The notes below the pieces were generated by a model. The model was not told where the DNA came from, searched no databases, and worked only from the letters and a program-made list of their open reading frames with translations. DNA of 35,047 nucleotides from a virus (Duplodnaviria > Heunggongvirae > Uroviricota > Caudoviricetes): IMG/VR virus record IMGVR_UViG_2534682060_000007, positions 1 through 35,047 of that record; one strand, given 5' to 3'. Each line of letters starts with the position of its first letter. Within the stretch, counting starts at the first letter, position 1. Both the position numbers and the translations under genes were made by a program. Positions 3,018 to 10,925 of this stretch are shown here, piece by piece.

Positions 3018-3671
3018 CTATCCTTTCTTGAAATCGAAGTTGCTAGCAGTGGCCTGAAAGGTTCCTCCTGCCTTGAAAGCTATGTCTCCGTTAGCGGTGA
3101 CAGCAATATTTTCCCCTTTAACATTGATGTTGTTGGCTGATTTGACGTTAACACTCCCTCCTGCATTCACGATTACATCAGCCGGACCAATGATATATAT
3201 CTGCCCGGACTCATTCATGCCAATCCTTGAGCCTGCTGCCGTATTGGCAATTTCATAGCCGCCACCAGCAGTTCGTACTTCAAGAATATTGTTGCGGTGA
3301 ATAACGAAGTCTTTCGTTGCTGAGATTTGGGGGCGGGGAGGTGCTCCATCTACTTCCGGCGGCGTCCAGCCGTTGCCTTTGCCAGATGCTTCTGGTGCAA
3401 CGTTTGGAATTCCTCCCGGTGCATCCTGAGCGGCACCAACTATCATTGGGCGTCTGGTGTCTATTCGACCGTTAACATCTAAATAAGGAAACTCTACCCA
3501 GACCAGGTCACCTTTGACTGTGGGTACAAAAGCGTTTCCGATGGGTAACAGGTATTCCGCCCAGGGTAGATCGTCATCAGGAACGCCATTCCAGTCAGGT
3601 AAAACACGGACTTGAGCACGCATAAGCCCTGCCGGGTGCACAGTTCCAACAATTTGCGCTCTACGCTTCAT
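3018..3671 (-). CDS. baseplate-spike-like protein (gpV/gp5-type OB-fold N-terminus plus beta-helical repeat C-terminus)
   Basis: N-terminal pattern GTV...VRV...W...P.G...P..GD.V.V.F reminiscent of P2 gpV/Mu gp45 OB-fold; C-terminal G/N/V-rich repeats (VIVNAGGSVNVKSANNINVKGENIAVTANGDIAFKAGG); start overlaps stop of upstream gene. Confidence 0.5.
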   Translation of the reverse strand: MKRRAQIVGTVHPAGLMRAQVRVLPDWNGVPDDDLPWAEYLLPIGNAFVPTVKGDLVWVEFPYLDVNGRIDTRRPMIVGAAQDAPGGIPNVAPEASGKGNGWTPPEVDGAPPRPQISATKDFVIHRNNILEVRTAGGGYEIANTAAGSRIGMNESGQIYIIGPADVIVNAGGSVNVKSANNINVKGENIAVTANGDIAFKAGGTFQATASNFDFKKG

Positions 3672-4648
3672 TTGTTCGGCACTCCCAATATCATTCGTGT
3701 TGTGTAGCCTACGCGGTCTTCAAAGTGCGCAACATTTTTTACTATCAGCTTACGGGGCATTGATTCATCAATGCGGTTTTCCTGGTCATAGCGGTATACG
3801 ATAATCTCTATCACCATCCCCGGTTTTATATCAGGATTGCCTGCGACTTCTATATCCATTTTGGGGACGAGAGACAGCTGCATATTGCGAAGAGTTTCCA
3901 TATCAGAGTCGGATATATAACGCACTGGGAGTGAGCTATCGCCATATTCGACGTAGCCATCGGTCATGGAATACCCAACAAAACGATATTGATTCTTTGC
4001 TGTTGTCGCATGTTCCTGTTGGAGTAGGCGCATTTTGGACAAAGTGTATTCTGCTTTAGGGTTATTCCCCTCGTAGGTAAATGATGGCGTTTGCTTCATC
4101 AGATCAGCCAGGGTGTAAAAGTTAAATTCCCCCCGACATACCCAACACAATGCACCTTTGTCTCGCGCTATCTCCGAAAGCATTTTTGACGGTTTGTCAC
4201 CAGCATTCAGATGATATGTAACTGCGCGTTTTAGCACGCTGCTGGTAATTTTAAGTTTGCCGGAATATGCCTTGAATATAGCGTCTGGTGTTTTGTTGGT
4301 ATGTAAATTTGTGCGCGGGGAGGGGATCTTAAACCTGCGCACGTCTTCACTGACAGCAATAACGGTAACAACATCACCAGCCAGCATTGCAGACGTAACA
4401 AAGAAATCTGTTTTAAAAGTGCCTGCATTACCGTTTGGATCGCCCATTTCAGCCACCAGCGATGCACCGTATTTGGCTTTCCAGTCATCAATTACGGTGC
4501 CGGTAGCGTCATGAATTTCCAGTTTTAGCAAAGGGGCTTTGAGGCTGGTTTTTTCTACATATACTGCGGTAAAAATCCAGTCTCGTGGCACTTTGTTATC
4601 GTTAATGAGCACTGACTGTAGAAAATATTGTTGTAACTCCTGGGCCAC
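3668..4648 (-). CDS. hypothetical protein, third gene of coupled four-gene operon
   Basis: 326-aa ORF, start 3 nt after upstream stop; no recognisable catalytic motif. Confidence 0.6.
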   Translation of the reverse strand: MAQELQQYFLQSVLINDNKVPRDWIFTAVYVEKTSLKAPLLKLEIHDATGTVIDDWKAKYGASLVAEMGDPNGNAGTFKTDFFVTSAMLAGDVVTVIAVSEDVRRFKIPSPRTNLHTNKTPDAIFKAYSGKLKITSSVLKRAVTYHLNAGDKPSKMLSEIARDKGALCWVCRGEFNFYTLADLMKQTPSFTYEGNNPKAEYTLSKMRLLQQEHATTAKNQYRFVGYSMTDGYVEYGDSSLPVRYISDSDMETLRNMQLSLVPKMDIEVAGNPDIKPGMVIEIIVYRYDQENRIDESMPRKLIVKNVAHFEDRVGYTTRMILGVPNK

Positions 4649-4651
4649 TTA

Positions 4652-5419
4652 TCACCCCATAGATATCGATGTTTCGGTAATAATACGTTTTGCGTCCAAC
4701 TCCCATGCTGTGATCACGTCTGCAATCACACTTATCGGCGCTTGTGTGGCATAAATACGCTCTTCTCCAATTGGTGCTGAAACATCCGTAAAGCCGACTT
4801 CTTTGGCATCCTGTATCGAGCAAATCAGCGGGACCGGGACACGAACAAGGTGAGTGGTTGCTTCAAATTGTGTACCTGTCATCAGGCGAAGCCGTGCGCC
4901 CAGCGAATTACACATCAGACTCATGGTCGCTTTATCAGTTGCCATTAACGTAACGTCATACGTCAGAATGGCCTGGGTGTATTCCAGTTCTGCTAAAGGC
5001 GTTCCGGTATCTGGTTCGCAAAAACAGGCTACTTTTTTGCGGTCAATCTGCTGATCATCGTTGATATAATTGATATCCATAGTGCGTGAGATATTGACCA
5101 GGGGGAGAGCATCCCGGTTAATGTTCTGGTTTTCAGGTTTTCTCCCTTGCCCGGCATTTGCGCGACGAACTGCTTTAAGAAACTCGATCGCATTGTCGAA
5201 ACGGGCCATATAGACACGCTCTGCTGGTGGACGATTCAGGAATGACGCAAAGCGTTTTTCTTCCGGCGCGGGGGCCACCAGTAAGATATCAGAAAAAATG
5301 TTGCTGATTAGCGTCGCAAACGCGTTATCCACGTTTTCAAAGCCCGTGGTCTGGAATTTTCCTGTGCGTAAGGTTTGCCATTCACCGGTTCGCGCCAGGA
5401 GGGTTTTATTTGAAGTCAT
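4652..5419 (-). CDS. hypothetical protein, second gene of coupled four-gene operon
   Basis: 255-aa ORF, ATGA start/stop overlap with upstream gene. Confidence 0.6.
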   Translation of the reverse strand: MTSNKTLLARTGEWQTLRTGKFQTTGFENVDNAFATLISNIFSDILLVAPAPEEKRFASFLNRPPAERVYMARFDNAIEFLKAVRRANAGQGRKPENQNINRDALPLVNISRTMDINYINDDQQIDRKKVACFCEPDTGTPLAELEYTQAILTYDVTLMATDKATMSLMCNSLGARLRLMTGTQFEATTHLVRVPVPLICSIQDAKEVGFTDVSAPIGEERIYATQAPISVIADVITAWELDAKRIITETSISMG

Positions 5420-6219
5420 TCGATCACTCCGTTTTGAGTCGTATCAAAATTCCTGGCAGGTATGCAGTAGTAAAGCGAACCAACATGCTGTGTGCCGTAG
5501 CTAAAAATACGGTGCACGTACCACCAGCGGCGGGCTACGCCGTTTACCATCTCTTCATTCCATTCAAGAATTGAGCCGACGGGGACGTTATTTGCTGCAA
5601 TACGCAGAATCAGAACATCATCGGTTAAGCCATCCTGCTCACCGTCTGCGTCAATTGCATGGAAAGAGTCACGCCCGTCAGGGTTATCCAGCACATAAAC
5701 AATTTCAGGTTCCTGATAGGTCAGTTCACGCTGGTTGTTATCCAGTTCAGTGAATGACTCTTCTCCTGTTTCGTCGCTGACTACCCCAAATGTGCCAACA
5801 TCAGGTCGATATAAGAGAGCCTGAAACGCATCTGGGCTGGATTCAATAATCAGCATCCAGTCTGCGCGGATTTGGTCGTTAAAGGCTTTATGCCCGTTAT
5901 AGCGTGCTTTTAACTGTGGAGTCGGTTCTCTGCCAGCCAGGGAAGATGGAAGTATGGCTATATCTGATTCGCCAGCATCCGGAGTAAGGCCACCGTTGCT
6001 ATCAGCAAAATTATCATGGCTATCAGCTTTGGCGGCGGGTTGCTCTTCCGGAATGCTGAATGAATCCGAACCGGTATTGCCATGTTCCGGCGCGCCTCCT
6101 GCATTCGCTTCAATCGGCGCTGGCGTTTCTCTCTGCGTGCTGTCATGTTCTGACTCCTTACTTGCCAGGTTTGCATCGTCAGCAAACCATTCGTCAAAAC
6201 GGCCCATAAGCATCCTCAA
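5416..6219 (-). CDS. hypothetical protein with acidic low-complexity N-terminal region, first gene of four-gene operon
   Basis: 267-aa ORF; ORF-table start at 6219 is a TTG; more likely start is ATG at about 6207 with GAGG RBS. Confidence 0.55.
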   Translation of the reverse strand: MRMLMGRFDEWFADDANLASKESEHDSTQRETPAPIEANAGGAPEHGNTGSDSFSIPEEQPAAKADSHDNFADSNGGLTPDAGESDIAILPSSLAGREPTPQLKARYNGHKAFNDQIRADWMLIIESSPDAFQALLYRPDVGTFGVVSDETGEESFTELDNNQRELTYQEPEIVYVLDNPDGRDSFHAIDADGEQDGLTDDVLILRIAANNVPVGSILEWNEEMVNGVARRWWYVHRIFSYGTQHVGSLYYCIPARNFDTTQNGVIE

Positions 6220-6369
6220 AGGTCGATCTGTCAGGTATCGAAAGGAAGATTTTCGGGAGATTGTGATTTTGGATGAAGGAGGGGGAATTTATAAAATGCA
6301 CTTGCGCACAGTGCAACGGTGCGCTATAGTTATGGCATTCGGTAATCATCACGGAGGATCAAATGACTA

Positions 6370-6672
6370 ATGACCAAAAAAATTAACATAAAGGATTTCA
6401 GGGATGCGTGGCTTGATGATTTTTTTGAATTTTCAACACCACATAGAAAGATACCTCCTGATATTCATATGACATTGTCACGGAAGTTGGACATTATCAA
6501 TGCCGCAACTACCTGTAAGGATTTAAGATCACCACCAGGTAATCGGTATGAGGAACTGTCAGGGAAGCTAAATGGCTATTCATCAGTAAGGGTGAATAAG
6601 CAATATAGGTTAATTTTTAAGTGGGTTAACGGAAAGGCCGAGGACTTGTATCTCGACCCTCACAAATACTAA
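6370..6672 (+). CDS. higB: HigB-like killer toxin (RelE/ParE superfamily)
   Basis: 100 aa; C-terminal YRLIFKW...DLYLDPHKY pattern typical of HigB-like killer proteins; GGAGGA RBS; directly precedes HigA-type antidote. Confidence 0.7.
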   Translation: MTKKINIKDFRDAWLDDFFEFSTPHRKIPPDIHMTLSRKLDIINAATTCKDLRSPPGNRYEELSGKLNGYSSVRVNKQYRLIFKWVNGKAEDLYLDPHKY

Positions 6673-6742
6673 AACAGATACCCGGTTACGGACCGGGTTC
6701 TGACCAGAGTCCACTTAATACGCACGCTAGTAAGGGCAAAAA

Positions 6743-7081
6743 ATGAAACAGGCAACCAGAAAACCGACGACCGTAGGTGATATCCTGCTGTACGAATACC
6801 TGGAGCCGTTAGAGCTGAAGATCAACGAGTTGGCAGAAATACTTCATGTTCATCGTAACACCGTAAGTGCTCTTGTTAATAATAATCGTAAGCTAACGAT
6901 GGATATGGCATATCGCCTGGCAAAAGCATTCGATACTTCTGTAGATTTTTGGATTAATCTTCAGACCGCAGTAGACCTGTGGGAAGTCGAAAATGATATG
7001 CGCGTTCAGGAAGAGTTAAGTCGTATCAATACTGCTGAAAAATTTATTTCTCAGCGGAACCTGAATAAAAAAGCAGCCTGA
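6743..7081 (+). CDS. higA: HigA antitoxin (XRE-type HTH antidote)
   Basis: VGDILLYEYLEPLELKINELAEILHVHRNTVSALVNNNRKLTMDMAYRLAKAFDTSVDFWINLQ matches HigA/VapI-type HTH antidote pattern. Confidence 0.8.
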   Translation: MKQATRKPTTVGDILLYEYLEPLELKINELAEILHVHRNTVSALVNNNRKLTMDMAYRLAKAFDTSVDFWINLQTAVDLWEVENDMRVQEELSRINTAEKFISQRNLNKKAA

Positions 7082-7137
7082 TATAGTAAAACACATACAA
7101 AAAGCCCACTTAGCAAGTGGGCTTTCCTTTGTAATTA

Positions 7138-7497
7138 ATGAACATTAAACCTATCCGTACAGAACAAGATTATGAGGCCGCACTGCGTGCGGTCGAACCG
7201 ATGTTCGATAATGAACCGGAAATGAACACACCGGAAGGCGATTTCTTTGAGGTTATGTGTCTTCTCATTGAGGAGTACGAGAAAAAACATTACCCAATTG
7301 AGCCACCATCACCTATTGAGGCCATTAAATTCCGTATGGAACAGCAAGGACTGACCGTGAAGGATCTGGAACCGGCAATTGGTAAGTCAAACCGTGTTTA
7401 CGAAGTGCTTAATGGGACACGAAATTTGACGTTACCTATGATTCGTCGTTTACATGCCCAGTTTGGTATTCCACTGGAAAGTCTGATTGGTGTTTAA
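7138..7497 (+). CDS. second HigA-family protein (E. coli HigA/YgjM-like, C-terminal HTH) with no cognate toxin upstream
   Basis: Architecture and motifs (GLTVKDLEPAIGKSNRVYEVLNGTRNLTLPMIRRLHAQFGIPLESL) resemble the YgjM-type HigA antitoxin as recalled. Confidence 0.65.
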   Translation: MNIKPIRTEQDYEAALRAVEPMFDNEPEMNTPEGDFFEVMCLLIEEYEKKHYPIEPPSPIEAIKFRMEQQGLTVKDLEPAIGKSNRVYEVLNGTRNLTLPMIRRLHAQFGIPLESLIGV

Positions 7498-7641
7498 GTT
7501 TTGCGGTCTGGATGACCGCTGTTTTTATAAAAATAGATACTAGAAATTTGGTAGCATATATGAGTACAGATTCATCAATAAAGAAGGCAGCCGAATCAGA
7601 TAAAGAAAATGGGGGGGCCGATTGATGCCGCCAAGGATGTA

Positions 7642-8340
7642 ATGGAATATGTTATAAAGGATAAATTGTTTAATAAAGTATTTGCATATATTTTTATCTC
7701 GTTTTTAGTTGTTAATTGGCGAGATATATTAATACTAATTAAATCAAAAGAAGATATTCTTTATACACTATCAATAGTATTTGTTGGTGGCAAATTACCG
7801 TTTCTTGGTGGTGTTGTTTTATCACCGTGGGTTGCTCACTTTTTCTTGCCGTTTGTTTATGGCGTGATTGCGTCAATTGTGGCGCCAATAGTTACTCTAG
7901 CTGTATCTTACGTTACAACCAACATATATCATGAAATAAAATTTTTAGATGAAAATGCCTATGAAAATCAACTTAAAAAACAAGCAAAGAAAGCCAAAGA
8001 AAGAATTGATATTGAAATGAATGGTAAGTATAGCCAAAAAGTATTAGACGAAAGAAAAAAAGACCTGGAAGATATTGATAATGCGATTAAAAATAAACAA
8101 ATTAACTTTGATAAAAAAAGAAAAGAGTTTGCTGATAATATAAATTTAACATATGATAACATTCTCAGTTTAAGCGAATTATATAAGAATGGAGGGTTCA
8201 AAATTGAAAATCAGCAGGATTTATATAAATTCCTTTCTGCAGTAAAGGAATCATCATTCAATAACATAAATTTTGATAAATTATTCTCTGAAATTTCCCG
8301 CTTGCATTCTGAAATGCAAACTGATTTATCAGAAAAATGA
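7642..8340 (+). CDS. membrane protein with N-terminal TM helices and long K/E-rich coiled-coil C-terminus, in very AT-rich DNA
   Basis: Hydrophobic segments FAYIFISFLVVNW and LSIVFVGGKLPFLGGVVLSPWVAHFFLPFVYGVIASIVAPIVTLAVSYV; start placed at ATG 7642 with AAGGA RBS (ORF-table start 7609 lacks RBS). Confidence 0.55.
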   Translation: MEYVIKDKLFNKVFAYIFISFLVVNWRDILILIKSKEDILYTLSIVFVGGKLPFLGGVVLSPWVAHFFLPFVYGVIASIVAPIVTLAVSYVTTNIYHEIKFLDENAYENQLKKQAKKAKERIDIEMNGKYSQKVLDERKKDLEDIDNAIKNKQINFDKKRKEFADNINLTYDNILSLSELYKNGGFKIENQQDLYKFLSAVKESSFNNINFDKLFSEISRLHSEMQTDLSEK

Positions 8341-8375
8341 AAGCCTGGCATAAACCACCAGGCTATATGTGTGGT

Positions 8376-9569
8376 TTATGCTTTTTTTACATACTCCATG
8401 AACATTTTTTTAGCTTGTGCTGGTGGTGTTCCAGCCATGACAAGCGCATCAATGAACGCCTGCTTCTTCAGTGCGAACTGATCGGCCAGGCGTTGCTGAA
8501 GCTCCTTGTTTTTCTGTTTCTCACGTTGCAACGCCGCTTCTTTTGCTGCCGCCCGTTTTTTCTGTGCGTCTGACAACTTTCTGGCCTTGGTCAGTTGGTC
8601 ACGTAGCTTGTCAATCTTGCCGTTGTCCTTTGCCAGTTTTGTGCTTAAAGCGGCCTGGCGCTTCTGATAGAGCCTCCATTCTCGCTTGGCAGCGTCAACG
8701 TTCGTTTTACTGCTACGATTGCGATTAAACTCCTTCTCGTCTTCTTTTGAGAAGTGTTTGGTTGTACGGCGGCGATCGTCACCAAATGCAATTTGCGTTG
8801 CAGCCTTTTGTAGCGCACGAGCAATACTCATTTGCCAACTGGCGGACTGTAACCGCGTCATTGAGTGGATCACGTGTTTACAGGCGACGCCTTGCAGCTT
8901 CGGGTTGCGAACTTTTGGATAGGCGTATTCTTTTGGCGGTGCCAGGGCAAAGTTACCCGCAGTGGCGATGTAACGATACCAGTATTGATGACGACCACAG
9001 TCACAATCGAAAGACACTCGCCCGGCGCACAGTGATTTAGTGATTTTGAGAGCTGATTTATCGTCTTCTGCGATGTCATCAACCATCTGATCCCATTCTT
9101 CAAAGCGTATCCGGACGATATGGTGCTGGTGGACGGATATATCCGATGCTTCTACGCGGATATTAATCACATTGTGGCGAAGAGATACGGGTGTAGCTCT
9201 TTTGATACCAGATCCGTCATCCACGGCGTTATTTGCACGCTTAATATCGATTGCCTGGCTGGATGCCACCAGCTGGGCGTATGTGATGCCAGCCGTCTTG
9301 CTGTCATATTTTTCGCGCGTTTTACTCCGTAGCTTTTCGAAACCTTTCAGGTCGTCTCGCGTGAAGAACGTGCCGCCTTTTTTCTTCCCTAACTTGAGAA
9401 TATCTTCGGCGGATTTGTTCCTCAGTCTACCTGGCGTCAGCGTCCGGTGAGCTTGTCGGCGCTTACGGGTTTGTTCTTTCCTGATAAGGTCGAATAAACG
9501 CGTGAAGTCCTTAGAGGACAGGCCGTCAGTGATATAGCGCCCGTCCTGGTTTTTCAGGAAATCAGGCAT
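8376..9569 (-). CDS. SWIM-type zinc-finger protein with K/R-rich coiled-coil C-terminus
   Basis: CDCGRHQYW...GVACKHVIH fits a C-x-C...C-x-H SWIM-like motif; GGAG RBS; start overlaps stop of upstream 109-aa gene. Confidence 0.55.
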   Translation of the reverse strand: MPDFLKNQDGRYITDGLSSKDFTRLFDLIRKEQTRKRRQAHRTLTPGRLRNKSAEDILKLGKKKGGTFFTRDDLKGFEKLRSKTREKYDSKTAGITYAQLVASSQAIDIKRANNAVDDGSGIKRATPVSLRHNVINIRVEASDISVHQHHIVRIRFEEWDQMVDDIAEDDKSALKITKSLCAGRVSFDCDCGRHQYWYRYIATAGNFALAPPKEYAYPKVRNPKLQGVACKHVIHSMTRLQSASWQMSIARALQKAATQIAFGDDRRRTTKHFSKEDEKEFNRNRSSKTNVDAAKREWRLYQKRQAALSTKLAKDNGKIDKLRDQLTKARKLSDAQKKRAAAKEAALQREKQKNKELQQRLADQFALKKQAFIDALVMAGTPPAQAKKMFMEYVKKA

Positions 9570-9891
9570 TTTCTATCTCCGGTTCCGCGCTCGCGTAATC
9601 ACGGATCTTGTTCCTCAGCCATGCCACATCAGGAAGAGTTAACGTGGTCCCGGCGGGCATTTCTTCCATTTCTGACTCATGGCCCACCAGCACCCGGAAT
9701 ACCCAGCGCAAATCTGCATTGCCATACGCCCTGTAGGCTGCAAGGTCTGAACGATATACTTCATCAATCTTTATCGTGTACTGGAAATTATCAGAGTGAT
9801 ACTCCGATACCCGCTTAATCATTTCCTGGTGAAACAGCGCACGAAAAATATCGTCTTCAATGTACCTATCGTCGAGTCTGCTATAGCCCAT
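9562..9891 (-). CDS. hypothetical protein co-transcribed with SWIM protein
   Basis: 109-aa ORF, 8-nt overlap with downstream gene. Confidence 0.5.
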   Translation of the reverse strand: MGYSRLDDRYIEDDIFRALFHQEMIKRVSEYHSDNFQYTIKIDEVYRSDLAAYRAYGNADLRWVFRVLVGHESEMEEMPAGTTLTLPDVAWLRNKIRDYASAEPEIENA

Positions 9892-10084
9892 AACAAAGCC
9901 TCTCAGTCATAACCTGGGGGAAACTGTATGCAGGGTGTGAAATGCGAGAAACAGACAGGCCACCAGTTCAGGGGGATGTGGTTCATAAATCCCCTCACTG
10001 GTGACAAGTGACTTTCATTAATCTTTATGCGGGGGCCAGCTTCATTTGCTGGCATTAGATTAAAAATTAAACGGAGTGAATGAC

Positions 10085-10219
10085 ATGGATGTTATCTTCA
10101 AATTATTAATGCTAATTGATCTGTTTATGAACGCTTCATTGACCACTCAAATACTCGCGTCAATATTTTTGTTACTCTTCTACCTGGTATTGAGGGAGTT
10201 AACAAAGCTACTAATGTGA
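10085..10219 (+). CDS. candidate small hydrophobic peptide (44 aa)
   Basis: ATG with GGAG RBS about 8 nt upstream; translation MDVIFKLLMLIDLFMNASLTTQILASIFLLLFYLVLRELTKLLM; not in ORF table (under 60 aa). Confidence 0.25.
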   Translation: MDVIFKLLMLIDLFMNASLTTQILASIFLLLFYLVLRELTKLLM

Positions 10220-10873
10220 TCAAAGTATCACGGTATCTTCATCAACTTCTTTCCCAGCCAGTGACTTTGGCTGGGAGGTGCCTGCTTTAACTTTTTCATG
10301 CCCAATAATGGACAGGAACGAAGCGAGTATGCCTGTTTTTTGCTCTTTCTCGACTGTACCGGTCATCTGCTCTACATAATCTGCACTGGCAACGTTGTGG
10401 TATACGGTCGCGTAGCAACACAGGATCATCAGAATATGCTCCGGCCTGATATCCTGCCAGTTCACCCTGTAGACTTCTTCTCCGTTACCGTTGTATTCGG
10501 TATCAACGATAGAGTCGGGGATTTCGAAAGCACCTTTGTTATTTTGCGGCAGGGATAATAGTTTCTGGAGTTTTAACTCTCTGTATCTTTCCATCCCGAC
10601 GATGATTGCTGCTCTACCATCGGCATGACGGGTCTTGAGAGTCACCTGACTTGCTCCGGTGCCAGCGGAGATCGTTGGCGTAATTTCGTCTACTAGAACC
10701 TTAAATTTGCTTTTCCGCAGGGCTGCTATAGCTGGAGGAATTTTTTGCTTTTGCTCCAATGCTGACGCGGGAAGGGGTTTTACTTCGTTAATAATGAGAG
10801 CACCGTCTTTCAGTATTGCAGTGAGCATTTGAGGCTTGCTGGTGGTCAGGCTGAATATTGCGATCTTTTCCAT
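10220..10873 (-). CDS. hypothetical phage protein
   Basis: Start placed at ATG 10873 (MEKIAIF...) with GGAGG RBS; ORF-table start 10915 is upstream in-frame. Confidence 0.6.
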   Translation of the reverse strand: MEKIAIFSLTTSKPQMLTAILKDGALIINEVKPLPASALEQKQKIPPAIAALRKSKFKVLVDEITPTISAGTGASQVTLKTRHADGRAAIIVGMERYRELKLQKLLSLPQNNKGAFEIPDSIVDTEYNGNGEEVYRVNWQDIRPEHILMILCCYATVYHNVASADYVEQMTGTVEKEQKTGILASFLSIIGHEKVKAGTSQPKSLAGKEVDEDTVIL

Positions 10874-10900
10874 TGTCCTTCCTCCACGGATGACGGATAC

Positions 10901-10925
10901 AAAAAAAGGCCGCACATGGCGGCCT
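10901..10925 (-). terminator. intrinsic-terminator-like hairpin in the 5' leader of the 10220-10873 gene
   Basis: Stem aggccgc/gcggcct; on the minus strand it is followed by a 7-U run; sits 28 nt upstream of the start codon on the same strand. Confidence 0.4.

What the first reader, a model, noticed from the sequence alone, without database searches (positions are those of the whole stretch)
8376..9891. SWIM-zinc-finger protein operon
A 397-aa protein with a C-x-C ... C-x-H SWIM-like motif and a lysine/arginine-rich coiled-coil tail is co-transcribed with a 109-aa protein. The operon is convergent with the AT-rich membrane gene. SWIM domains are nucleic-acid or protein interaction modules and are uncommon as stand-alone phage proteins, so function is unknown.
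Basis: inference. Interest (0 to 1): 0.4.

Follow-up and report, generated by a model that had tools for sequence, protein, structure and literature searches.

The report
P1 tail genes 25 and 26
These two genes are the phage-D6 versions of the long-known phage P1 tail-assembly genes 26 (a baseplate "plug") and 25; gene 25 does carry a divergent SWIM-like zinc motif, and what it does at the molecular level is still unknown.

Summary
Two overlapping minus-strand ORFs (109 aa at 9562-9891, 397 aa at 8376-9569) sit convergent to an AT-rich membrane gene. The 397-aa protein has C189-x-C191 ... C230-K-H232 and a basic helical tail.

The pair is not an orphan operon. The window is a D6-type P1-family phage-plasmid (98.4% nt identity to phage D6). 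The genes are orthologues of P1 late genes 26 and 25.
- P1 gp26 is a solved baseplate "plug".
- gp25 is a "tail stability" gene defined by amber mutants.

Both genes head a cassette, 26-25-7-24-6-5, that is conserved in distant environmental phages. In this window an inserted toxin-antitoxin/membrane island splits it.

The SWIM call is supported at fold level only.
- The four putative ligands are invariant in 62 diverse relatives.
- The best viral neighbours (Foldseek) include phage "SWIM-type" proteins.
- Pfam SWIM never reaches threshold, and a conserved 38-residue insert splits the motif.

gp25 is absent from the near-complete P1 virion cryo-EM models, gives only a weak mass-spectrometry signal, and is very basic (net +38).

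Best reading: a transient or low-copy factor in tail/neck assembly. Mechanism is inferred. Moderate-to-low interest.

The parts
9562..9891 (-). Gene 26 orthologue (109 aa): baseplate 'plug', the T4 gp53-like wedge-to-hub glue protein.
   Evidence: PDB 9ay5_S/9vzk 'Gp26', E=1e-16. PHROG 1269 'baseplate wedge subunit', E=2.3e-36. D6 orf75 is annotated 'similar to P1 gene 26'. Its role in the P1 virion is described in PMC12810830 and the bioRxiv preprint.
8376..9569 (-). Gene 25 orthologue (397 aa): 'tail stability' morphogenetic protein with a SWIM-like zinc module and a basic helical tail.
   Evidence: PHROG 1722, E=5.6e-197. 99% identical to D6 orf74 and 57% identical to P1 gp25 over aa 1-334. 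AlphaFold2 model: pLDDT 82.6, pTM 0.72.
9562..9569 (-). 8-nt overlap (ATGCCTGA) between the stop of gene 26 and the start of gene 25.
   Evidence: The 26->25 gap is 9 nt or less in 31 of 39 informative lineages, out of 41 dereplicated at 80% identity.
9300..9569 (-). N-terminal basic helical region (aa 1-90, net +12). It is variable in distant relatives.
8784..9299 (-). Conserved core (aa 91-262): a three-stranded sheet (122-156), helices, and the SWIM-like motif.
8997..9005 (-). C189-D-C191, the first half of the putative zinc site.
   Evidence: Invariant in A1, A2, A4 and A5.
8883..8957 (-). Insert loop between the two halves of the motif (aa 205-229). It is conserved as E214..(F/Y)P218-K219-x-R-N222-P..L..G227.
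   Evidence: E214, P218, N222 and G227 are invariant in 62 representatives. The loop has lower pLDDT than its flanks.
8874..8882 (-). C230-K-H232, the second half of the putative zinc site, at the start of helix 231-239.
   Evidence: Invariant. This is the part that Pfam SWIM aligns to in relatives.
8379..8783 (-). C-terminal basic helical (coiled-coil-like) tail, aa 263-397, net +19, ending in a small helical module.
   Evidence: The tail is net positive in 61 of 62 family representatives.
8342..8364 (-). Terminator-like hairpin (AGCCTGG...CCAGGCT followed by TTCATTTTT) between the convergent stop codons.
3018..6219 (-). The rest of the conserved cassette, separated here from genes 26-25: gene 7 (stopper, 5416-6219), gene 24 (tail terminator, 4652-5419), gene 6 (hub, 3668-4648), gene 5 (spike, 3018-3671).
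   Evidence: D6 annotation. jackhmmer seeded with the P1 proteins. Roles come from PMC12810830.
6370..8340 (+). Inserted low-GC accessory island that splits the cassette: HigB-like toxin, HigA-like HTH protein, a second HTH protein, and a membrane protein.

Best explanation
IDENTITY (shown). The locus is the D6-type orthologue of P1 late genes 26 and 25. These are the first two genes of a tail/neck cassette, 26-25-7-24-6-5, encoding plug, gp25, stopper, tail terminator, hub and spike. The cassette is conserved across a wide group of roughly 45-100-kb phages.

THE 109-aa PROTEIN. In the P1 virion its orthologue gp26 is a six-copy baseplate 'plug' that glues the wedges to the central hub. The same role is inferred here by orthology.

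ARCHITECTURE OF THE 397-aa PROTEIN (inferred from models and alignments). It has three parts:
- a basic N-terminal helical region;
- a conserved core in which C189, C191, C230 and H232 most likely bind one zinc ion, in a SWIM-like fold split by a conserved 38-residue loop;
- a long, strongly basic helical tail.

MECHANISM (inferred, not shown). gp25 is not a building block of the finished particle. It is a transient or very low-copy morphogenetic factor that acts when the tail is completed and joined to the head. Its SWIM-like module would hold a partner, with its cassette neighbours gp26, gp7 or gp24 as the obvious candidates. The basic coiled-coil tail would oligomerise or bind an acidic surface or DNA. 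Without gp25, tails are made but are unstable or unjoined.
For: IDENTITY
- 98.4% nt identity to phage D6.
- D6 annotates these genes 'similar to P1 gene 25/26'.
- 57% aa identity to P1 gp25; PHROG 1722, E=5.6e-197.
- The 109-aa protein matches P1 Gp26 in PDB 9ay5_S, E=1e-16.

CASSETTE
- In P1 the genes lie in the order 26-25-7-24-6-5 downstream of late promoter LP26.
- A gp26-like gene lies upstream on the same strand in 160 of 162 fetched loci, and is adjacent in 146.
- The order 26-25-7-24-6-5 is kept in distant environmental contigs.
- Junctions are tight on both sides in about 31 of 41 dereplicated lineages.

ZINC/SWIM-LIKE CORE
- The ligands are invariant.
- SWIM is the only recurrent Pfam match: 12 of 62 relatives, best E=0.01.
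- In one relative the match spans both halves of the motif (aa 194-248 to profile positions 12-37 of 38).
- Foldseek against BFVD returns SWIM-type phage proteins with probability 1.0.

NOT A MAJOR STRUCTURAL PROTEIN
- P1 cryo-EM at 3.2-3.5 A assigns gp7, gp24, gp26, gp6 and gp5 but never mentions gp25. The P1 tail-baseplate preprint does not include it either.
- Virion mass spectrometry found only 2 peptides, 8.4% coverage.

MORPHOGENETIC ROLE
- P1 gene 25 is annotated 'tail stability'. Genes 25 and 26 were discovered as amber mutants.
Against: - No partner, no zinc binding and no location has been shown for any family member.
- Assembly chaperones are usually acidic, from my own knowledge. 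This protein is extremely basic (net +38), and that is conserved in the family. This fits nucleic-acid binding better.
- The weak mass-spectrometry signal could reflect a real low-copy virion component rather than a transient factor.
- CRISPRi knock-down of P1 gene 25 lowered plating only about 10-fold and scored 'non-essential'. The authors suspect ineffective roadblocks.
- The amber 'tail stability' phenotype could partly reflect polarity on genes 7 and 24.
Confidence: 0.5

Rival explanations
1. gp25 is a low-copy DNA-binding virion protein that works like T4 gp2, the DNA-end protector. It would sit with the genome end in the neck or tail lumen, help head-tail joining, and possibly protect the injected linear DNA.
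For: - Conserved extreme basicity in all three regions.
- The core has conserved Arg, Lys and aromatic residues (R193, Y/W196-200, K219, K231).
- Weak but real virion mass-spectrometry signal.
- Invisible in symmetrised cryo-EM, as an asymmetric lumen protein would be; the tape measure Sit was also unresolved.
- The gene sits next to the stopper and terminator genes, as T4 gene 2 sits between gene 4 (head closure) and gene 3 (terminator), beside genes 53 and 5.
- The mild CRISPRi defect would fit a conditional requirement.
Against: - No homology to T4 gp2: hhalign probability 0.04, and gp2 has no cysteines.
- No recognised DNA-binding domain reaches significance.
- Nothing is known about DNA binding in this family.
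- The positional analogy is loose.
Confidence: 0.22
2. gp25 is a dedicated chaperone or installer for the baseplate plug gp26. Mis-installed plugs would weaken the wedge-to-hub connection, so tails fire prematurely, giving the 'tail stability' phenotype.
For: - Overlapping stop and start with gene 26 here, and adjacency in 146 of 162 loci.
- gp26 glues the wedges to the hub, and its release accompanies contraction.
Against: - gp25 is coupled just as tightly to gene 7 downstream.
- Insertions separate 26 from 25 in 8 of 41 lineages.
- Gene 26 is annotated 'baseplate' but gene 25 'tail stability', so the recorded defects differ.
- The protein is basic, which is unlike typical chaperones.
Confidence: 0.15
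3. gp25 is a true structural virion component, such as a flexible neck or collar fibre or a tail-lumen protein, that current maps and proteomics have missed.
For: - Database names call it 'phage tail protein'.
- 2 peptides were found in virions.
- Its helices of 24 and 61 residues could form a fibre.
- Flexible parts such as fibres, UpfB and Sit were also unresolved.
Against: - Very low peptide coverage for a 45-kDa protein.
- The cryo-EM papers report no unexplained neck or tail density.
- The 'tail protein' name derives from genetics, not from localisation.
Confidence: 0.1
4. gp25 is a nucleic-acid-binding regulator of late gene expression, and its morphogenesis phenotype is indirect.
For: - Basic, zinc-motif protein.
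- One distant homologue is annotated 'transcriptional regulator MvaT'.
Against: - It is conserved strictly inside a structural cassette.
- That annotation is automatic and unsupported.
- No HTH or other regulator domain was found.
Confidence: 0.03

Closest known systems
Phage P1 gp25 ('tail stability' protein; PHROG 1722) and phage D6 orf74
   Same: Full-length orthology: 99% to D6 orf74 and 57% to P1 gp25 over aa 1-334. Same neighbour (gene 26), same cassette, same invariant Cys/His motif.
   Different: The C-terminal ~60 residues diverge from P1. In this window and in D6, an inserted ~2-kb island on the opposite strand cuts genes 26-25 off from genes 7-24-6-5.
Phage P1 gp26 / T4 gp53 (baseplate wedge 'plug'; PDB 9ay5, 9vzk)
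   Same: The 109-aa protein aligns to P1 Gp26 over residues 4-99 (E=1e-16). It belongs to PHROG 1269.
   Different: It is shorter than P1 gp26 (109 vs 125 aa). Pfam Phage_gp53 and Phage_tail_X match only below threshold (E about 0.05-0.07).
SWIM zinc finger (Pfam PF04434; e.g. ZSWIM8, PDB 9rwz)
   Same: C-x-C ... C-x-H signature, with the CKH at the start of a helix. ZSWIM8 is the best structural neighbour in the PDB. The best named viral structural neighbours are called 'SWIM-type domain-containing protein'.
   Different: 38 residues separate the two halves, and they carry their own invariant motif (E..FPK.RNP..L..G). No member reaches the Pfam gathering score. The module is embedded in a larger beta-sheet and helix core and followed by a basic coiled coil.
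T4 gp2 (DNA end protector)
   Same: A comparable position in a neck/baseplate gene cluster (T4: 4-2-3 next to 53-5), and in my reading of its sequence a Lys/Arg-rich N-terminal part. From my own knowledge, it is low in copy number and is needed for efficient head-tail joining.
   Different: No sequence or profile similarity (hhalign probability 0.04). No cysteines and no zinc motif. The resemblance is a functional analogy only.

Membership tests
P1 gp25 family (PHROG 1722) | Full-length sequence similarity to P1 gp25 / D6 orf74 | tested here: met
   PHROG 1722 E=5.6e-197, residues 2-396. tblastn gives 99% to D6 and 57% to P1.
P1 gp25 family (PHROG 1722) | Position in the cassette 26-25-7-24-6-5 | tested here: met
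   Gene 26 lies directly upstream, and genes 7-24-6-5 lie downstream on the same strand, although 2156 nt away across an insertion.
P1 gp25 family (PHROG 1722) | Morphogenesis-defective (unstable-tail) phenotype of mutants | not testable with these tools
   Known only for P1, from record annotation and from papers that cite Walker & Walker 1983. The primary paper was not available.
SWIM zinc finger (Pfam PF04434) | C-x-C-x(n)-C-x-H signature | tested here: met
   C189-D-C191-x38-C230-K-H232, invariant in 62 relatives. As I recall, classical SWIM domains have a spacer of about 6-25 residues, so n=38 is longer than usual.
SWIM zinc finger (Pfam PF04434) | Profile score at or above the Pfam gathering threshold (19.6 bits) | tested here: not met
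   No hit for the window protein even at E<=10. The best value across the family scans was E=0.01. The best score seen with bits reported was 13.9 bits, E=0.041.
SWIM zinc finger (Pfam PF04434) | Fold similarity to solved or annotated SWIM proteins | tested here: met
SWIM zinc finger (Pfam PF04434) | Binds one zinc ion through the Cys3His ligands | not testable with these tools
   Needs metal analysis of purified protein.
P1 gp26 / T4 gp53 baseplate plug | Sequence similarity to a structurally placed baseplate protein | tested here: met
   9ay5_S Gp26 E=1e-16. PHROG 1269 E=2.3e-36.
T4 gp2 DNA end protector | Homology to gp2 | tested here: not met
   hhalign probability 0.04, E=0.86. gp2 has no Cys.

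The most novel reading that the evidence does not exclude
The gp25 family could be a previously unrecognised class of zinc-dependent, DNA-binding neck or tail-lumen proteins. It would bind the packaged genome end and be needed for head-tail joining, and perhaps for protecting the injected linear DNA. That would make it the P1-group counterpart of T4 gp2 or Mu N, built on a split SWIM fold. It would also explain why gp25 is genetically required, barely detectable in virions and invisible in symmetrised cryo-EM maps.
Probability: 0.2. Interest if true: 0.6.

Novelty: already known. Interest (0 to 1): 0.3.

Why it matters
P1 is a classic model phage and transduction tool, and P1/D6-type phage-plasmids are widespread in Enterobacteriaceae. 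About 100 plasmids in PLSDB carry this segment at 95% identity or more.

Recent cryo-EM work assigned nearly every P1 morphogenesis protein to a place in the particle. gp25 is one of the few amber-defined late genes left with no location or mechanism.

Recognising a conserved Cys3His SWIM-like module, a conserved insert loop and a conserved strong positive charge gives concrete handles for experiments: ligand mutants, zinc analysis, and tests of DNA or partner binding.

As a scan finding it is otherwise an ordinary, already annotated tail-gene pair.

Tried and rejected
SEARCHES THAT FOUND NOTHING USEFUL
- Pfam, NCBIfam and PADLOC gave no significant hit for the 397-aa protein.
- PDB sequence and profile searches gave only spurious hits: pectin lyase E=0.04, huntingtin polyQ, an endopeptidase E=0.16.
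- The afdb50 library was unavailable.
- I looked for domain fusions in the longest family members and found none.

IDEAS TESTED AND REJECTED
- Homology to T4 gp2: rejected.

PROMOTER AND OPERATOR SEARCHES
- The P1 C1 operator consensus gave no match within 3 mismatches.
- A P1 LP26-like late-promoter pattern gave 14 matches against 8.3 expected, none in a convincing position upstream of gene 26.
- The only sigma-70-like site upstream (10131-10102, 9 of 12 matches) is no better than chance.
- The promoter of genes 26-25 in this window therefore remains unidentified.

PAPERS NOT AVAILABLE
- Lobocka 2004, Walker & Walker 1983 and the D6 genome paper could not be read.
- The 'tail stability' phenotype is therefore cited second-hand.

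Full report
OBSERVATION

The two ORFs exist exactly as described: 9562-9891 (-) encodes 109 aa and 8376-9569 (-) encodes 397 aa. They overlap by 8 nt (ATGCCTGA), and each has a Shine-Dalgarno-like sequence. The 397-aa protein contains FDC189DC191GRHQYWYRY ... GVAC230KH232VIH. Its last 135 residues have 27% K/R (net +19) and are predicted to form long helices. The neighbouring gene 7609-8340 (+) is convergent, hydrophobic, and lies in the lowest-GC part of the window (0.33). A hairpin followed by a T-rich run sits between the two stop codons.

WHAT IT IS

The segment is 98.4% identical in DNA to Escherichia phage D6, a P1-family plasmid prophage. D6 annotates the two genes as 'similar to P1 gene 25' and 'similar to P1 gene 26'.
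- The 397-aa protein is 99% identical to D6 orf74 and 57% identical to P1 gp25 over residues 1-334. It matches PHROG 1722 at E=5.6e-197.
- The 109-aa protein matches PHROG 1269 and the solved P1 Gp26 chain 9ay5_S at E=1e-16.
- The exact 397-aa sequence is on 63 contigs in public data, named only 'phage tail protein' or 'hypothetical protein'.
- About 100 E. coli and Salmonella plasmids carry the segment at 95% identity or more; those listed are about 75-93 kb.

CONTEXT

In P1 the genes lie in the order 26-25-7-24-6-5 downstream of the annotated late promoter LP26. I fetched 162 related loci from IMG/VR and the annotated phage collection.
- A gp26-like gene lies upstream of the gp25-like gene on the same strand in 160 of them, and is adjacent in 146.
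- The whole order 26-25-7-24-6-5 is kept in distant environmental contigs of roughly 45-100 kb.
- After dereplication at 80% identity (41 lineages), both junctions are usually overlapping or within about 10 nt. Insertions occur on either side in a minority of lineages.

This window and D6 have such an insertion. A low-GC island on the plus strand (6370-8340) separates gene 25 from gene 7 by 2156 nt. The island carries a HigB-like toxin, a HigA-like HTH protein, a second HTH protein and the membrane gene.

KNOWN BIOLOGY OF THE P1 ORTHOLOGUES

A 2026 whole-virion cryo-EM study (PMC12810830) built these models: gp7 as the connector 'stopper', gp24 as the tail terminator, gp26 as a six-fold 'plug' gluing the wedges to the hub, gp6 as the hub, and gp5 as the spike. 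gp25 is not mentioned anywhere in that paper. A 2025 preprint on the tail-baseplate complex likewise includes gp26 but not gp25.

Gonzales et al. 2022 (PMC9024508) detected gp25 in virions with only 2 peptides (8.4% coverage). HHpred gave them no match above 50%.

Piya et al. 2023 (PMC10695390) note that genes 25 and 26 were found as amber mutants, so they must count as essential. Yet both scored non-essential (efficiency of plating about 0.1) under CRISPRi, with no polarity on genes 7-24-6-5.

So gp26 is explained. gp25 is a genetically defined morphogenesis gene with no known location or mechanism.

IS IT A SWIM PROTEIN?

At sequence level, formally no.
- Pfam SWIM does not hit the window protein even at E<=10.
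- Among 62 diverse relatives, however, SWIM is the only Pfam family that recurs: 12 members, best E=0.01.
- The matches cover the C-K-H helix. In one relative the match covers both halves of the motif, aa 194-248 to profile positions 12-37 of 38.

Conservation is striking. A HMMER profile search of 1.84 billion representative sequences finds 596 clusters. In an alignment of 62 representatives with 19% mean column identity, the only invariant residues are G94, C189, C191, E214, P218, N222, G227, C230, K231 and H232. These are the four putative ligands plus a motif in the 38-residue loop between them.

At fold level:
- The AlphaFold2 models are confident: full length pLDDT 82.6 and pTM 0.72; residues 1-262 pLDDT 83.0 and pTM 0.81.
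- Foldseek against BFVD returns ten small phage proteins with probabilities of 1.00 down to 0.72. Both hits with informative names are 'SWIM-type domain-containing protein'.

I conclude that this is a divergent, split SWIM-like Cys3His module. It works like a SWIM domain but is not a threshold-passing member of PF04434. Zinc binding itself is untested.

HOW IT PROBABLY WORKS

Shown:
- conserved placement in a tail/neck cassette;
- absence from the high-resolution virion models;
- weak mass-spectrometry presence;
- conserved strong positive charge (net +38 here; median +6, +12 and +12 for the three regions across the family; the tail is positive in 61 of 62 representatives).

Inferred: gp25 is a transient or very low-copy factor acting at tail completion or head-tail joining. 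It would use the SWIM-like core to hold a partner and the basic helical tail to oligomerise or to bind an acidic surface or DNA. The P1 record labels genes 7, 25 and (with 'baseplate or') 24 'tail stability', and two of those proteins are now known to form the head-tail interface. That points to the joining step. Polarity of gene-25 amber mutations on genes 7 and 24 cannot be excluded.

RIVALS
- (a) A T4 gp2-like DNA-end-binding protein. The T4 cluster 4-2-3 next to 53-5 is a positional parallel, and basicity, low copy number and cryo-EM invisibility all fit. But gp2 is not homologous (hhalign probability 0.04; no cysteines).
- (b) A dedicated installer of the gp26 plug. Translational coupling supports this, but gp25 is coupled equally tightly to gene 7.
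- (c) A structural component that has been missed.
- (d) A regulator.

None of these can be separated with the tools at hand.

NOVELTY AND VERDICT

The gene pair is already known and annotated. What is possibly new is the fold-level SWIM-like assignment, together with the conserved insert loop and the conserved charge. I found no database name or paper that mentions it, and HHpred by others had failed. Interest is moderate to low.

Noticed in passing
window 6370-8340 (+): A low-GC (0.33-0.43) accessory island is inserted inside the conserved tail cassette. It holds a HigB-like toxin (6370-6672, Pfam E=4e-35) and a HigA-like HTH protein (6743-7081). It also holds a second HTH protein (7138-7497) that matches the first 119 positions of PADLOC PD-Lambda-2_B (E=4.7e-43), and a 243-aa membrane/coiled-coil protein (7609-8340, PHROG 8191). 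This may be toxin-antitoxin or defence cargo. Phage D6 has the same layout (orf70-73).
   Followed up: partly
window 5416-6219 vs 8376-9569; loci L032, L035, L096, L105, L116: In this window and in 5 other lineages (6 of 41 in all), genes 7-24-6-5 are separated from genes 26-25 by 0.9-2.2 kb. Here the gap holds opposite-strand genes, and a terminator-like hairpin follows gene 25. The downstream genes must therefore have their own promoter. An internal promoter before gene 7 could also explain why CRISPRi roadblocks in P1 genes 25 and 26 showed no polarity (PMC10695390).
   Followed up: partly
window 8379-8450 (aa ~375-397) and the C-termini of family members (alignment A4, columns ~560-590): After the basic coiled coil, many family members end in a short conserved helical module (G-[LIM]-[ST]-x-x-[ED]...). 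Single members give weak hits to RuvA_C, SAP, RecX_HTH1 and Phage_TAC_7 (E 0.003-0.45). This may be a small protein- or DNA-binding hairpin.
   Followed up: no
window 6361-6369 (+): An exact 9/9 copy of the P1 LP26 '-22' box (AAATGACTA) overlaps the higB start codon, but no -10 element follows it. About 0.3 such matches are expected by chance in this window, so it is probably coincidental.
   Followed up: partly
window 10220-10915 (-) and 9892-10219: A homologue of the P1 'mat' maturation-control gene lies directly upstream of gene 26 on the same strand, unlike in P1. It is separated from gene 26 by a 328-nt spacer that contains an inverted repeat (TCACT-N7-AGTGA at about 9990-10006). No promoter could be assigned in the spacer.
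   Followed up: partly
L003 (Acinetobacter phage ABMM1) 4299-5709; L004 (Xanthomonas phage Rb1) 6758-7879: The distant gp25 homologue in Rb1 is mis-annotated: it is called 'transcriptional regulator MvaT'. I found no gp26-like ORF upstream of it. ABMM1 keeps the gp26-gp25 pair next to its head genes.
   Followed up: partly
window 5954-6370 (+): A 138-aa ORF overlaps the 5' end of gene 7 on the opposite strand and ends in a TAATG overlap with the higB start codon. D6 does not annotate it, and it is probably spurious.
   Followed up: no
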